A stretch of DNA of 63,618 nt, the filler included, from Collodictyon triciliatum (taxonomy: Eukaryota): the NCBI GenBank assembly GCA_043381765.1. It is 12 parts of 12 records of this genome, joined end to end, with 100 filler letters (N's around TTAATTAATTAA, not from the genome) between each part and the next. Parts side by side here need not be neighbours in the genome. Positions count along the whole stretch, not along the records: positions 14,938 to 19,811 come from JBHJMP010005686.1; 11 more parts are not named here. One strand, 5' to 3'. The position numbers were made by a program, and so were the translations under genes. Below the pieces are notes generated by a model. That model saw only the letters and a list, made by a program, of their open reading frames with translations, ran no database searches and was not told the origin of the DNA. This document shows, one piece after another, positions 15,707 through 32,330 of this stretch; positions within the stretch are counted from its first letter, which is position 1; each line of letters opens with the position of its first letter.

Positions 15707-17614
15707 TTACAACAAACCCATGGCCAGCGCGGATATGTGGCATTGAAGGAGGACATACGACTGGTCAGCAAGAAGGCGCCGATGCGCTTGGACAATCCAG
15801 GGCTGCATGCGCTCTTGAGTTAGGCGAGGAAGCTTCTCGAATTCCTGGACAGCTGCATGTAAGTTGTTTTCATGGAAAAGGAGGTACTCGGCAGATTGCA
15901 ATCGCTGGTGTGGGTGGAGTTTGCTGTCTGGTGTTGCCTCGACGATCATCTTGGCGTTGTCAATCGAAGGAATAATCAGAAAGTAGTTGGCAACGTGCGA
16001 AAACAAATGGGCGAACACACCACCCGATCCGTAGCCCAGCAGCATATTGTAAGTCCTGGTATGTTCACTGTCAACTGGGTTTGATGGGGAGCTTGACGGG
16101 GCTGGAGCATTTGGGACATCCGGGTGGATGGCGTAGCGGTATAAATCTTCCCGCATTTCTTTGTATGTAACCTGAAGAGATTTCAGATTCATAACACCGT
16201 CAGCCAAAGGCCTGAGCGATTCCACAGCGACGTCTACCAAGGTATCCTGTTCCTTTGATACAACAGACTTTGATATATCCAACATGACATCCAATTCGTG
16301 GTGGAATGGCGTAACATGGGGGTTGTGCAACGCGCGGTGAATGGAAAATAGAGCAACCCACAAGGAATGAACGCGAGTGATGTCTTGCGCAAATGAAATG
16401 CGCTGGTCAAGGAGGTGTCCTAATTGTTGCACGCGGTCTTCGATTCCTTTCTCTTTTTCCTGACGATTTGACGCCTCGGATGCGAATCGCTCCTGCACGT
16501 ACGAAATCTCTTGTTCAAGTCTGTTTTGCCAAACACGGGATAAGTTAGTTTCTTGCCATTGAAGCTTCTCTTGCACATAGTTTTTCCATTTCTCGTCCCG
16601 AGACTTTATGATCTTTTTCGCCTCTTCGTATTGCTCATCCATTTTTCCTTTGTACTCCGCCTCGATTCGAGCGATCTCTACTGAAAGACGATTGGAAAGC
16701 TCAGCCTCTACACGTTGGCGGAACTCACCATCTTCAACATCCGTCTTACTTTCTTTTTCAGCATCAAGTTCAACACTTTGTTGGATATCCTCAACAACAA
16801 TTTCGCCAGTAGCAGTCGCAGGAATGGCCTCGTCACCCAAGAGACTAATTCCTAACGCAAGCTCCATATCAGACGGGTTTTCCATGGGTGGATTTGTTTC
16901 TGCAGGTTGGATGACTGTTGAGGTTGATGGGGTGTAATCTTCCTTCTGGGTATCACTATGCTGATTTGCAACATCCTCAGCAACTGCAACATTAGACTCG
17001 ACGGGCTGAATTGTATTCTCTCTCTGTTCTTCCTGAACTTCTGGAACTGTTTCAATCACGGGTAATTCAGCAGAGTCAACTTGAACATATGATTCTAGCG
17101 AGACAGAGCCTGCTTCCCCACTCGAGTCACTGGTTGAGGACGGCTGCAGCTGGTTCTCTGTTTCTGTAACTACATCATTCTTTTCGTCATCAACACCGGG
17201 GCGAGCATCACTCACTGCAGGAACGTCAGAGTCCAGAAGTCTGCTCTGGGACTCTTTTGGCGGAGAAAGAGGCTCTGCTTGCTTGTGGATAATGCCCTGG
17301 AAGAGAAGCACTTTGTCCTGCAGCCAATCCACATATGCGGGCGGGACAGAGTTGTTCACTGTGGCCGAGAAAGCCGGGATATGTGCGTAGGCCGCAGCTC
17401 CGCCCAGCGGGACAACAATCCCCACGAAAGCAAGCGAGGCGATAAGTCGACCGAAGCCGCGGTTTGTTGGTTTCGGTGTTTCTGGCGGCGTTGCACCAGT
17501 CGTCAATAAGCGCAGAGTGAGTGGAGCAGGCTTTGCTCGGGCGATTTGTGGGAAGGCCGCCGCTGAGGCCGAGTGGGAAACTCGAGCCAAAGATGTTCGC
17601 AAGGCTGCGAGCAT
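15707..17614 (-). CDS. MIC60: MICOS subunit Mic60 / mitofilin, single exon
   Basis: Arg/Ser/Ala-rich mitochondrial presequence, one TM helix, acidic region, long coiled coil, and a C-terminal mitofilin domain (AEYLL...NLHAAVQEFEKL...WIVQAHRRLLADQ). Confidence 0.85.
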   Translation of the reverse strand: MLAALRTSLARVSHSASAAAFPQIARAKPAPLTLRLLTTGATPPETPKPTNRGFGRLIASLAFVGIVVPLGGAAAYAHIPAFSATVNNSVPPAYVDWLQDKVLLFQGIIHKQAEPLSPPKESQSRLLDSDVPAVSDARPGVDDEKNDVVTETENQLQPSSTSDSSGEAGSVSLESYVQVDSAELPVIETVPEVQEEQRENTIQPVESNVAVAEDVANQHSDTQKEDYTPSTSTVIQPAETNPPMENPSDMELALGISLLGDEAIPATATGEIVVEDIQQSVELDAEKESKTDVEDGEFRQRVEAELSNRLSVEIARIEAEYKGKMDEQYEEAKKIIKSRDEKWKNYVQEKLQWQETNLSRVWQNRLEQEISYVQERFASEASNRQEKEKGIEDRVQQLGHLLDQRISFAQDITRVHSLWVALFSIHRALHNPHVTPFHHELDVMLDISKSVVSKEQDTLVDVAVESLRPLADGVMNLKSLQVTYKEMREDLYRYAIHPDVPNAPAPSSSPSNPVDSEHTRTYNMLLGYGSGGVFAHLFSHVANYFLIIPSIDNAKMIVEATPDSKLHPHQRLQSAEYLLFHENNLHAAVQEFEKLPRLTQERMQPWIVQAHRRLLADQSYVLLQCHISALAMGLL

Positions 17615-17882
17615 CCTGCAAGGGAATGGTTGGGTCAAAACAGTTGGCCTCGTCTTCTACTGCTCATCTACCTTTGTATCTTTTCTTTTGTGTGCGTACA
17701 TATATTGTTTGTGTTTCTTTTATTTCGATATTTCCTCTTCCTCCTTCAATTGCCGCTTTTTTTCTTTCTTCTCGGGCTCAAAGAAGGCGCTGATCACGCG
17801 ATGCGGCGCTTTGTTGTGATTGCACCAGCACAGACGCACAGAAAGGAACCGATTCTGGAATTTACATTGATTATCAGCAATT

Positions 17883-18050
17883 CTGCCAATGCGCTTCTAA
17901 ATCACTCAATCACTGATATTTATTGCTTGACAAGAAGGGTTATGGCAGTCTCTCGATTGGTAAACCTGGTTCGCCAGTATCCAAGGTCTCACCACTTTTT
18001 TCACAAGTGTCGTGTAGTGGTGAAGGCTGCCAGGAAAGACCCGACAGCCT
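17883..18050 (-). ncRNA. putative Fanzor omega-RNA (guide RNA scaffold)
   Basis: Four consecutive stem-loops at the Fanzor 3' end; G-U wobble pairs form only on the minus (Fanzor-sense) strand. Confidence 0.55.
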
Positions 18051-18059
18051 ATTGTTTTT

Positions 18060-19811
18060 TAGAGGAAGTGTATGCATTCTTTGAAGGATAAAAAGAGCTT
18101 TGTTGAGTATATTATTAGCGCTGTTAAACTCCCTTATCATGAATACACTTTGTTTGCTTTCTTAGTGATTGCATTCTTTACATATGAGACATCTATACAA
18201 TTTTTTCGAGTTTCCTTTCAGTATTATATATTCCAGTTCTTTTTCGCAGTTAAAACACATCTCGAGGTTCTAATTTTATTTACGCTATCTGTTTCAAAAT
18301 TTTTGGATAGTATTTTTCGTTATCCTCTTCCGATTGTTGCCACAAAATGTTTTATCTGACATTTTCTGCTCCAGTCCCCATACGCCAGTACAACATCCTT
18401 GCCAAATGTCTTTTCGATTCGGTCCATAAACAATGGTTCACTTTTTTTCGTATGAACATACTGTCTCCATCTCGTCTTTCGAAAAGTTCGTTGTTCATAA
18501 AATCTGGAAAATTCTACTGGTATCTTGATTTTATAGATACATATTCTCGAAATTGTTCATAATCGACCGTGCATGAATTATGTTTGCTAAGTTCTGTCTC
18601 TAAATCGACTAAAGATACTCTTGATGTCTCAAACTGCTGATTCTCTTCAAAAGTCATGTGACAAAAAAAAAACATCACTTTGTAAACCTGTTGCCATGCA
18701 TATCCCTGAACAATTGTACTCTGCTTTTCTTTTTTTCTCGCGCAAGAGTATTTTGTGATTTTTAAGAGATTTGCTATCATGTCTTCTTTGGTGTGCCGTG
18801 TAACGTAATTTCTCATCTGTCCCATCCACCATGCAAACAAAATTAAACTTGCCTGCGTCCACTCCAACTATTTTTTTTTTGTCGCTAATAAAGATATCTG
18901 CTCTTCGGAAAGTTCATCCATATACATATTCTTGAGTTTTTTTTTATTATATTTGAATTTTGCATTTGAAATACGTTTCTTTTCAAACAATAATGACACC
19001 GCCAAGCCGTCTGTTTGTATCATGTATTTAAAACTGTAGTCTCTTTGATGAAAACCCTCTTCTTCATTTCAAAGAACTCATCCCACAGTGTCTCTTTGCA
19101 TCCTGATATATTCTTCAGTAATGATGTTTTTCTAGTTAATACTAACAGACAATCAAACATGCAGTATCTAGAGTAATATGACATGACATATTGTTAGTTC
19201 TTATAGAGATGGGTTGAAACAGTTTGGCTCCAATGTCCTCAAAAATGAGACTCATGTAAATCAGACATGGTATGTACTTCTTCGGATTGACTTTGACATC
19301 ATATTTGATACCATTTACAACATCGCTGGGAATGATATGATGCAAATGCGTTGTAGCCCATTCTTTATATTGTTCCGGTATGTGGAGTTTCTTGAAGATG
19401 GCTTTTTTTTTTCGTGACTCTGGCTTTTTAATAGCTCCCGTAATATTCTCATCTTTAGGAACTGTTTGATTTATAAAGCACAGGAACCTCTTAACAAAAT
19501 GTTCCTTAATATTTTTATGATAAGCTGCTAGCATTTGCTTCGCCAAGCACGGTAATACATGAGACAGTCTAACGACCGGAATGCGTTCTTCTCGGGACAA
19601 AAGGAATCGAAAATCATTGAGATAAAAAGTCATCATGCCATCTCTCATTTCTGGATTTTTAAACGTGTGGGTCTACCTTGTGAAACTACTCCGACTGTCT
19701 TTAAAGCATACAAAAAAAAACATTTCATCGGTTGTTGGGAGTTGTTGTGATTTCAATATGTAACATCTTGCAAACAGATAAGTGTCGGTAACCAAATTAT
19801 GACACAATAAA
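18060..19811 (-). pseudogene. Fanzor (TnpB-derived RuvC nuclease, Fanzor1-like), with frameshifts and stops; 5' end cut by the contig edge
   Basis: KYDVKVNP, KLFQPISIRTN..HITLDT, IQTDGLAVSLLF, IVGVDAGK (RuvC-I), LRYTAHQRR, AYGDWS, NKIRTS, ICKEC, IREFNSANNI (RuvC-III); no introns, AT-rich. Confidence 0.85.
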
Positions 19812-30152: not shown

Positions 30153-32330
30153 GTCGGGCTACTGGACATAGACATATGCGGTCCCAGTGCACCAAAGATT
30201 CTTGGAGTTCAGGGCAGTGAAATCCAGCAATGTGCCGAAGGGTTTGTGCGCAACCCCATGTGGTAGTGGTGAAAAAGTCGCATATATATGAAAGTGATAA
30301 TACTGACATAAAAACAGCGGCAAATACTAGATTGAGAAGTCAATACTTGACCATGTTTTGTGAATTTCCAATATCCCTTTTTCTTATTAAAAAAAAAAAG
30401 GAAATTAACCAATTAATCTGTATCTTCGACATATTTTCTTTTTTTCTTTCGCAGAAATGCGTGTAAAGAATGCTTAGTGAGATATATAAGCCGAGTTGTA
30501 TGTTGTGGTAGACGAGAAGCACAATATGATACAATCATTTGATTCATTACTTTTACTTGAAGATGGGTTCCGATTCCTGTTGGTTCTGAACGCCAGCTTC
30601 AAGTCATGTCCATCGGTTTTCTTCTTGGGAACCAGAATGAGGCTGTTATTTGGAGAGGTCCGAAGAAAACTGGTACGTCGACTGTATTGTTTTTTCTCAG
30701 ATATTAGTTTTTTCAGACGGGTGATGCGACTTCCGTTCGGCTGGGCTCTATTTCTGGCGCGCCATTTATATTACCAACATTTACTCATTTGAAACATCCT
30801 ATAACTGTCATCTCATTAATAACTGGCATCAAAAGCGATGATTAAGCAATTTTTGACGGATGTTTACTGGGGTGCATTGGATTACCTGATAATCGACACA
30901 CCACCTGGTTTGTTGCCTTGTCGCTCTTTTGGGTGCAAAATGATTTCTTTTCTTTTCTTTTCTTTTGATATTATATTTATCTAACTATATAGATAAATAT
31001 AATATCATCTTTTCTTTTCTTTTCTTTTCTTTTTTTGCGAAATTCTTTTGTAAACACACATTTTGAACAAATATTCATAAGAATATTATTATCTCATAAA
31101 CTTTCCCTTTGAAAGGCACTTCGGACGAGCATATCTCAATTATGGAGAATCTTCAAGCACATAACCCAACAGGAGCAATTATCGTGACAACCCCACAAGT
31201 GAGTCTAATCTACTTCTTGAAGAAATAAATGAAATCAACTATTTCCTCCTTTGTTCTTCTTGCAAAGCCAAAAGGACGCTATTTTCTCACAGTTTATGGA
31301 GAATTTTTTATAAAAAAAAAACAAGCAAATAAACTATTCTCTACTCCGACTGCTTTCATACTTTTGACATTTTTTTTATTTCCAGGCCGTTTCCATCGCT
31401 GACGTGCGAAAAGAAATCTCATTTTGTCGCAAAATCGGGCTCCCTATTCTCGGTGTAGTCGAAAACATGAGCGGCTTTGTCTGTCCTCATTGCTCAGTAT
31501 GCCTTTAACCACTCTTTCTCGTAAATATCTGATGTTTCTTTTTAACCATACTTGCTCATGCCGCCATACCTTGCTTTTCTATGGAATGCCGCTTATTTGT
31601 GGCACCGCTGTTTTCGATTTGCGTGCAATTCCCATACTTTTGAGCTATCCAGCAGCTTAGAGGGCATGATTTGGGACATTCATTGCGATTCTTGCTAGAA
31701 TTCTTATTGTTATTCCTTTGAAGGAGTGCACAAATATATTCTCGACGGGTGGTGGTCAGCAAATGGCGCAGGATTTGGGGATTTCGTTTCTCGGTCGCAT
31801 CCCGATTGATCCGTCGCTGGCTCTATGCGAAGAGGTTTCTTGGCCCTCTATACTTTTCGTTCATTCATTCGTTCATTCATTCGTTCATTCATTCGTTCAT
31901 TCATTCGTTCATTCATTCGTCCATTCATTCGTTCATTCATTCGTTCATTCGTTCATTCGTTCATTCGTTCATTCGTTCATTCGTTCATTCGTTCATTCGT
32001 TCATTCGTTCATTCGTTCATTCGTTCATTCGTTCATTCGTTCATTCGTTCATTCATTCATTCATTCGTTCATTCGTTCATTCGTTCATTCGTTCATTCGT
32101 TCATTCGTTCATTCGTGTTTGATTACGCTATCGTCATGTTTCCACACATTTTTGTTATTTTATTTTATGCAAAAAAATAATAACTGTCCTTTGTGCATTC
32201 CCACAACCAGCAAGGTCAGTTTTACATAGAACGATTTCCAGAGTCGCAAACGAGTTCATCGTTCAAGTCCATCATCGAAAATATGCACAAGCAAATCCAG
32301 CCTGATGAGGCGACAGCATCATCAGCTTAG
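30153..32330 (+). CDS. NUBP2: cytosolic Fe-S cluster assembly factor CFD1/NUBP2 (5' end missing)
   Basis: [61 protein letters not shown] (CFD1-type). Confidence 0.88.
31857..32114. repeat. (TTCA/TTCG)n intronic microsatellite
   Basis: Direct tandem repeat. Confidence 0.95.

What the first reader, a model, noticed from the sequence alone, without database searches (positions are those of the whole stretch)
17883..18050. Four stacked stem-loops at the Fanzor 3' end: candidate omega-RNA scaffold
Seen, on the minus strand 5'->3': (a) AGGCUGUCGGG-UCUUU-CCUGGCAGCCU, an 11-bp stem at 18050-18024 with two G-U pairs that form only on this strand; (b) UCACCACU...AGUGGUGA, a perfect 8-bp stem (18023-18016 with 17996-17989) enclosing CACGA-CAC-UUGUG; (c) GACCUUGG...CCAGGUU at about 17988-17963; (d) CUGCCA..CUUCU...AGAAG..UGGCAG at 17948-17883. 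This block is more GC-rich than the decayed ORF upstream. Known: TnpB/Fanzor omega-RNAs derive from the 3' end of the ORF and the element's right end, and the guide comes from the adjacent flank. Inference: this is the guide-RNA scaffold of this Fanzor family; the guide would lie just below about 17880, towards the MIC60 promoter.
Basis: partly seen in the sequence, partly recalled or inferred. Interest (0 to 1): 0.8.

Follow-up and report, generated by a model that had tools for sequence, protein, structure and literature searches.

The report
Fanzor guide-RNA fused to Helitron end
This folded stretch is the tail of a broken, many-copy rolling-circle jumping gene that carried a eukaryotic RNA-guided DNA cutter (Fanzor1); its first two hairpins match those behind related cutters in viral and environmental DNA and likely formed the cutter's guide-RNA scaffold, while the fourth hairpin is mostly host DNA and not part of it.

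Summary
The four stems are in the sequence and fold on the minus strand (z -4.2), but only part belongs to the system. The block is the 3' end of a decayed Fanzor1 on a Helitron-type repeat (at least 108 copies). Copies end sharply at CTAG|T, window 17931, not about 17880. Helix (d) pairs mutated element bases with single-copy host flank; it is not a family feature. A covariance model built only from viral and metagenomic Fanzor1 relatives ranks 18057-17961 first in the window (E about 5e-4; 0.034 and nearly tied with a broader model), pairing stems (a) and (b) with different letters. The 3' half shows no homology to the relatives, which are TIR/TA elements; it is a Helitron hairpin plus CTAG. 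Within the genome there is no covariation, and the scaffold is no more conserved than the ORF: all copies decay neutrally. The guide would most likely start at about 17929; this boundary is inferred, and no omega-RNA was observed. Fanzor on Helitrons is known (Chlamydomonas CRe-1/2/3, Helitron2); the CTAG carrier and rebuilt 3' half make a variant. The scan reported this twice before on other copies in this genome.

The parts
18001..19810 (-). Decayed Fanzor1 ORF (frameshifts and stops; RuvC-I GVDAG kept, catalytic E read as K, RD read as RE in this copy); its start lies beyond the assembly gap upstream of 19810
   Evidence: 18 stops in the one-frame match; 65-69% identity of copy fragments to intact P0001; P0001 matches GtFz1, PpFz1, SpuFz1 at E 2e-28 to 4e-23
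18024..18050 (-). Stem (a), predicted SL1 of the omega-RNA; overlaps the last codons of the ORF
   Evidence: 59 of 73 copies
17989..18023 (-). Stem (b), predicted SL2: nested stem with A-rich 3' bulge; holds the ORF stop codon (18003-18001)
   Evidence: 54 of 73 copies
17963..17988 (-).
   Evidence: 16 of 73; closing helix p 0.77 on the majority line
17938..17966 (-). Helitron-type terminal hairpin (family core CCAATC-GAAA-GATTGG), broken in this copy; loop inverted to TTTC in 10 of 45 copies
17931..17934 (-). Element 3' end, CTAG in the family (CTTG here); followed by T at 17930
   Evidence: T in 45 of 49; 25 of 27; depth falls to zero below about 17900 in 3 runs
17915..17929 (-). Host flank; predicted guide of this copy if the standard rule holds (inferred, not shown)
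   Evidence: boundary; rule from PMC10711439 and PMC13565253 passages
17883..17930 (-). Single-copy host flank carrying the 3' arm of helix (d): not part of the element
15707..17614 (-). Neighbouring host gene, MIC60-like; trans-splice acceptor AG at 17617-17616
   Evidence: (Mitofilin clusters, score 0.93; Pfam scans did not detect it)

Best explanation
The block 18050-17931 is the right end of a broken, non-autonomous Helitron-type transposon carrying a Fanzor1 gene, and it likely encoded that nuclease's omega-RNA scaffold. Shown: the Fanzor1 ORF, the copy family, the end at CTAG|T, the RepHel 5' remnant in some copies, and the match of stems a and b to relatives' covarying helices. Inferred mechanism: a Fanzor1 cassette from a TIR/TA-duplicating element, of the kind seen in giant-virus and metagenome contigs, was captured by a Helitron. 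It kept SL1 and SL2 inside the ORF end and replaced the TIR-derived 3' half with the Helitron terminus. That terminus served as the DNA end signal for RepHel acting in trans and, in the transcript, as the third stem. A read-through transcript would be trimmed to about 120 nt of scaffold, with the invariant T absorbed, plus about 15 nt of flank as guide. The RNP would cut empty sites and favour copying back of the element. All copies seen are dead, so today the block is a fossil.
For: Fanzor1 identity. The majority line of the last 165 codons is open with FRTS and RDxNSA motifs, so the source element was coding. 84 right ends: 49 CTAG, 26 near, 6 none, 3 unplaced. RepHel 5' sequence at about 70% in L111, L118 and L021. 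Seven Fanzor-less Helitron ends (hairpin, TACC, CTAG|T) share the same T...ATAA flank bias (ATAA in 18 of 27 near, 4 of 26 further out). The relatives' scaffold has 22 of 35 pairs with compensatory changes. Model R2, built from relatives only, ranks 18057-17961 first in the window (20.9 bits against 14.4) and hits the scaffold in 30 of 38 protein-selected copies at E<=1, 16 at E<=0.01. Helices 1-3 stay 90-97% paired in the joint, model-fitted alignment. Per-copy fold z has median -2.4 against 0.17 for ORF controls (40 each). The majority line folds into three domains closing at CTAG+T, as described for Fanzor1 reRNAs (PMC10711439 passages).
Against: No compensatory pair among 73 own copies. 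The scaffold diverges more (10.7%) than the ORF (7.5%) in 45 protein-selected copies. The sequence-only model R1 misses the block. The broader model R3 gives E 0.034, nearly tied with an unrelated AT-rich hit at 30370-30499, and matches only a+b. A linker/SL3 profile lands on region (c) in 0 of 45 copies. Model end points scatter over 78-165 nt, so the guide boundary is not fixed by homology. No intact copy among 88 matches. No small-RNA data; the only stranded RNA sign is antisense. The 5' ends are fuzzy and a clean TC start was not shown for Fanzor-bearing copies.
Confidence: 0.75

Rival explanations
1. The hairpins are only DNA-level Helitron end signals plus leftover sequence; after capture the scaffold was truncated and the Fanzor travelled as a passive passenger with no working guide RNA.
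For: No covariation or extra conservation within the genome. The 3' half has no homology to relatives. Loop inversions point to DNA-level hairpin events. Region (c) of this copy resembles the Fanzor-less Helitron end (11 of 2000 shuffles; majority line 225 of 2000, weak). CrFNuc on Helitron2 gave no cleavage (PMC10530073 passage).
Against: Stems a and b keep pairing with wholly different letters from the relatives, which needs selection on the RNA fold in this lineage. The source ORF was open. The intact homologue P0001 has the same C-terminal reading through stem a.
Confidence: 0.13
2. The scaffold ends at GGTTTA (17961), the counterpart of the relatives' GGTG|TA end, so the guide is fixed: the Helitron's own last 30 nt. 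The nuclease would then target the element's own terminus behind a TTTA motif.
For: Model R2 ended at 17961 in the window and near there in 3 other copies. Relatives' left flanks mostly read WTTA, the motif that precedes 17960. The last 30 nt diverge about 20%, more than any 14-nt ORF window (maximum 14%), around where Fanzor1 enzymes cut (14-21 nt from the TAM, PMC10432273 passage).
Against: That alignment skips 71 model positions, and end points vary between copies and models. The TIR weight matrix finds no remnant: best 3 bits upstream and -8 near the end, against a median of 38. No Fanzor-less target: all 11 exact matches and the one H-prefixed match are Fanzor copies. Hairpin template switching explains the variability more simply.
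Confidence: 0.1
3. One reading: four stems including (d) form the scaffold and the guide starts below about 17880.
For: (d) is in the MFE and folds well alone.
Against: All copies diverge right after 17931. The flank is single-copy among held loci. The 5' arm of (d) is private to this copy.
Confidence: 0.02

Closest known systems
CRe-1/2/3 (CrFNuc) Fanzor1 elements of Chlamydomonas reinhardtii (PMC3627910, section 3 parts 1-4 read; PMC10530073, passages)
   Same: Non-autonomous Helitron carrying Fanzor1, over 100 copies, intact 3' ends with truncated or deleted 5' parts, structured RNA region at the 3' end.
   Different: CRe elements are Helitron2 (ATIRs, insertion after TTTT, frequent 7-19 bp TSDs). 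This family ends in hairpin+CTAG|T like Helitron1, and TSD-like matches of 13-14 nt occur in only 2 of 33 copies, probably because the Helitron 5' end resembles its target. All copies seen here are broken.
omega-RNAs of SpuFz1, GtFz1 and PpFz1 (PMC10432273, PMC11423790, passages; PDB 8GKH, 9CER, 9CF0)
   Same: Homologous protein; stem-loops at the ORF end and right end; 120 nt lies within their 75-150 nt range.
   Different: Those end in an inverted repeat plus TSD; here the end is a rolling-circle terminus. SL1 is 11 bp predicted against 7 bp in the structures. The RNA sequences were not compared with them.
TIR/TA Fanzor1 elements in giant-virus and metagenome contigs (L137-L290)
   Same: 27-49% identity to P0001; SL1 stacked directly on SL2 with an A-rich bulge, overlapping the ORF end.
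   Different: They have about 22-bp TIRs (CACC...GGTG) between TA, a conserved linker and SL3/SL4; none of these is detectable here.
Helitron1 3' terminus (hairpin, CTRR, insertion before T; PMC3627910)
   Same: Hairpin with a GAA(A) loop, CTAG, T next; RepHel remnants; Fanzor-less relatives in the same genome with the same flank bias.
   Different: The terminal sequence differs from that of the Fanzor-less Helitrons, is hypervariable and shows loop inversions.

Membership tests
Fanzor1 nuclease | Homology to Fanzor1 over the N-terminal and RuvC parts | tested here: met
   through the intact homologue P0001; Pfam scans of fragments gave only a weak TNB hit
Fanzor1 nuclease | D...E-x-x-TS-zinc finger...RD motif | tested here: met
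   complete in P0001; FRTS and RDxNSA in the majority line; E and RD are broken in this copy
Fanzor1 nuclease | Intact, active copy in this genome | tested here: not met
   no long match without stops among 88 (68 of 1130 candidates scored); singleton N/S ratio 1.08
omega-RNA (reRNA) | Lies at the ORF 3' end and runs to the element's right end, same strand | tested here: met
omega-RNA (reRNA) | Stable fold beyond shuffles | tested here: met
omega-RNA (reRNA) | Covariation of stems a and b against diverged Fanzor1 loci | tested here: met
   weaker with R3; alignment fitted to the model
omega-RNA (reRNA) | Covariation or extra conservation among copies in this genome | tested here: not met
   expected to fail in neutrally decaying copies
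omega-RNA (reRNA) | Guide from variable flank directly after the scaffold | tested here: inconclusive
   flank is variable after 17930, but the scaffold end is not fixed by the models
omega-RNA (reRNA) | Discrete small RNA bound by the protein; TAM- and guide-dependent cutting | not testable with these tools
   only assembled contigs of long-RNA runs were available
Helitron1 | 3' hairpin followed by CTRR | tested here: met
Helitron1 | Insertion before T, no TIR | tested here: met
   T in 45 of 49 and 25 of 27; no TIR remnant
Helitron1 | 5' TC start after A, no TSD | tested here: inconclusive
   TC start seen for Fanzor-less copies; Fanzor copies have fuzzy left ends
Helitron1 | Link to a RepHel gene | tested here: met
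   PF14214 and PF05970 hits in the genome; their 5' DNA is shared with Fanzor copies L111, L118, L021
Helitron2 (CRe type) | Insertion after TTTT with frequent variable TSDs; ATIRs | tested here: not met
   TSD-like matches rare; CTAG end; ATIRs were not searched for specifically
TIR/TA (Mariner-like) Fanzor element | Terminal inverted repeats and TA duplication | tested here: not met

The most novel reading that the evidence does not exclude
After capture by a Helitron the scaffold stops at 17961 and the Helitron's own terminal hairpin became a fixed, element-encoded guide. The Fanzor then cut its carrier's 3' ends behind a TTTA motif, and the hypervariable last 30 nt are repair scars: a self-targeting OMEGA system with a non-flank guide.
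Probability: 0.1. Interest if true: 0.8.

Novelty: new variant of a known kind. Interest (0 to 1): 0.42.

Why it matters
It catches a Fanzor1 cassette after a change of carrier: the nearest relatives sit between TIRs in viral and metagenome contigs, this one on a CTAG-ending Helitron. The first two stems were kept by compensatory change and the 3' half was replaced. That fits the structural claim that SL1 is the constrained part (PMC11423790), and it gives a natural test of how a guide boundary is reset on a rolling-circle end. It also bears on the open question of what Fanzor does for Helitrons, whose donor sites are thought not to be emptied (PMC13565253). The limits: all copies are dead, Helitron-borne Fanzors are already described, and the boundary is not shown.

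Tried and rejected
Rfam: two chance hits far below gathering. Pfam on ORF fragments: nothing usable. P0001's own DNA was not found in metagenome or viral contigs, nor by a degenerate DNA pattern, so the closest intact locus could not be tested; that its C-terminal codons could keep stem a is back-translation only. Model R1 came out without structure and missed the block. TSD model: 2 good and 2 weaker matches in 33 copies; dropped after the Helitron 5' end proved to resemble the target bias. TIR remnants: none. Linker/SL3 homology looked plausible by eye but failed (0 of 45). Fanzor-less targets for a fixed guide: none. Region (c) as an old Helitron end: 11 of 2000 shuffles for this copy, 225 of 2000 for the majority line; left open. 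Frequent C/T and G/A variants in stems a and b keep pairing but sit at CpG sites, so they were not counted as selection. Run search: no RNA holder on record; no RNA contig covers 17688-17948, which is no evidence either way. The pattern-selected copies are biased, so conservation was measured on 45 of 48 protein-selected copies (3 too short), and 38 of the 40 newly fetched ones went to the models. Paper searches listed no description of a CTAG-ending Fanzor Helitron omega-RNA. Bao and Jurka's element table gave 3 Helitron rows, of which the 2 shown are CRe-1 and CRe-2 (2 of 14 files not searched). The Jiang table S1 rows were not seen, and Repbase is not covered, so prior description is not excluded.

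Full report
Observation. Rfam has no real match.

The gene. Upstream lies a frameshifted ORF. An open 222-residue piece from another copy found one relative, P0001, 648 aa and 65% identical, which matches GtFz1, PpFz1 and SpuFz1 in the PDB. It is a Fanzor1. This copy has lost the catalytic E and has RE for RD. No long stop-free match appeared among 88 in the genome (68 of 1130 candidates scored). In 45 protein-selected copies the majority line of the last 165 codons is open and stops 47 nt after the start of stem a (18003-18001). Singleton variants have an N/S ratio of 1.08 and the tree is star-like. So a coding source element spread, and its copies then decayed neutrally.

The boundary. A DNA search gave 339 candidates; all 40 scored matched. 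A 22-letter pattern gave 108 matches. Aligned ends stop at ...CTAG|T, window 17931/17930. Of 84 distinct ends, 49 have CTAG, 26 a near form, 6 none and 3 were unplaced; T follows in 45 of 49, and in 25 of 27 in the protein-selected set. Contigs from three public runs also drop to zero below about 17900. Helix (d) therefore joins this copy's mutated terminal bases to host flank found in no other held locus. It folds well (z -3.07) but is not a family feature, and the guide cannot lie below 17880.

The carrier. A hairpin, CTAG and a following T are the Helitron1 end (PMC3627910, section 3 parts 1-4 read). The genome has RepHel and PIF1 hits, and copies L111, L118 and L021 share about 70% identity with the 5' part of those loci. 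Seven Fanzor-less Helitron ends were found, with a different hairpin, the same CTAG|T and the same T...ATAA flank bias. Left ends are fuzzy; the longest copies are 3.4-3.7 kb and start near a (GTTT)n tract. TSD-like matches are rare (2 good of 33) and probably reflect the likeness of the Helitron 5' end to its target. The family is a non-autonomous Helitron derivative; a clean TC start was not shown.

Is it an omega-RNA scaffold? Within the genome the test fails: RNAalifold on 73 copies gives 6 pairs and no compensatory change, and the scaffold diverges 10.7% against 7.5% for the ORF. Dead copies cannot show selection, so I used relatives. An alignment of 30 homologues fetched 154 viral and metagenome loci. 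Of 99 with the RD motif, 85 have a common end motif, and 41 showed a matching left TIR, mostly between TA. Ten of the closest fold into four helices with 22 of 35 pairs compensated. Model R2, built from these alone, ranks 18057-17961 on the minus strand first in the window (20.9 bits, E about 5e-4, next 14.4). It hits the scaffold in 30 of 38 protein-selected copies at E<=1 and 16 at E<=0.01. Stems a and b fill its first three helices with different letters (the alignment is fitted to the model). Against this, the sequence-only model misses the block. The broader model R3 gives E 0.034, nearly tied with an unrelated hit, and hits the scaffold in 24 of 38 copies, 8 at E<=0.01, nearly always over a+b only. 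Any strong hairpin plus nested stem earns some score; the added weight comes from the position just behind the RD motif, on the same strand. The 3' half has no detectable homology: no TIR remnant, and the linker profile lands there in 0 of 45 copies.

The 3' half. The majority line closes a third domain by pairing an internal CTAG with the terminal CTAG and the flanking T (p 0.77 and 0.61; 20 of 73 copies). That would match the three-stem shape and the absorption of invariant flank bases described for Fanzor1 reRNAs (PMC10711439, passages), but CTAG is self-complementary and no covariation supports it. The last 30 nt diverge about 20%, more than any 14-nt ORF window. The hairpin loop reads TTTC instead of GAAA in 10 of 45 copies, unclustered on a poorly resolved tree (8 changes, shuffled mean 9), which suggests repeated DNA-level inversion.

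Mechanism (inferred). A Fanzor1 cassette from a TIR element was captured by a Helitron and moved by RepHel in trans. Its transcript ran through the end and yielded about 120 nt of scaffold plus about 15 nt of flank (17929-17915 here) as guide, to cut empty sites, as in restorative homing (PMC13565253, passages). The main rival is a passenger with a truncated RNA. The bolder rival is a fixed guide from 17960. It has R2's end point in the window, the preceding TTTA and the hypervariable zone in its favour. Against it are unstable end points, no TIR remnant and no Fanzor-less target.

Expression. Two runs of one study carry a leader of about 22-25 nt on the MIC60 contig at the AG at 17617. The leader has 39 genomic matches, and one of four inspected is followed by a GT donor, so these runs look like RNA with trans-splicing. 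Many of their contigs cover the family. One contig per run joins the leader to the plus strand at 18010, which indicates an antisense transcript of some copy. Contigs cannot show a small RNA, so there is no evidence for or against an omega-RNA.

Known or new. Fanzor1 omega-RNAs (PMC10432273, PMC11423790, passages) and Helitron-borne Fanzors (CRe-1/2/3; CrFNuc in PMC10530073, passages; discussed in PMC10288648, passages) are described. The CTAG-type carrier and the rebuilt 3' half were not seen in three searches, which do not cover Repbase or all supplements. Two earlier notes of this scan, on other pieces of this genome, reached the same reading; I saw them after my own model test (note). Verdict: new variant of a known kind, fossil, interest 0.42.

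Noticed in passing
window 17617-17614 (minus); runs X3, X6: The MIC60-like contig starts with a non-local leader of about 22-25 nt joined at an AG three bases before the ATG, which points to spliced-leader trans-splicing in this host. The leader has 39 genomic matches; L359 has a GT donor after it.
   Followed up: partly
L357, L358, L360, L313: Most inspected leader copies are followed not by a donor but by (AG)n and a shared repeat; possibly a retroelement tied to spliced-leader genes (idea recalled from SL-targeting elements, untested). One lies about 50 nt downstream of a Fanzor-Helitron end (L313).
   Followed up: no
window 18010, plus strand: A leader-bearing contig in each of two runs starts antisense within stem b, after a pyrimidine tract and AG: a cryptic trans-splice acceptor on the antisense strand of some family copy.
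   Followed up: partly
family ends, e.g. L129, L307, L312, L319: The terminal hairpin loop is inverted (GAAA to TTTC) in 10 of 45 copies, apparently more than once.
   Followed up: yes
L301, L303, L304: Fanzor-less Helitron 3' ends are joined directly to the Helitron 5' end (head-to-tail). The 5' end resembles the T...ATAA insertion bias of all these Helitrons. L301 and L303 carry a 13-bp minisatellite.
   Followed up: partly
L032, L044, L090, L108, L126, L295, L296, L298: A 430-520 bp repeat, by eye like a LINE zinc-finger fragment (recalled, not tested), recurs inside or beside Helitron sequences.
   Followed up: no
L137-L290: A large set of giant-virus and metagenome Fanzor1 elements with about 22-bp TIRs, TA flanks, mostly WTTA left flanks and a strongly covarying scaffold of about 155 nt. 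They have long ORF matches and would be better material for experiments than this genome's copies.
   Followed up: partly
window 30370-30499 (minus): Second hit of models R2 and R3 (14.4 and 19.7 bits); AT-rich with a composition bias, probably chance; not examined.
   Followed up: no
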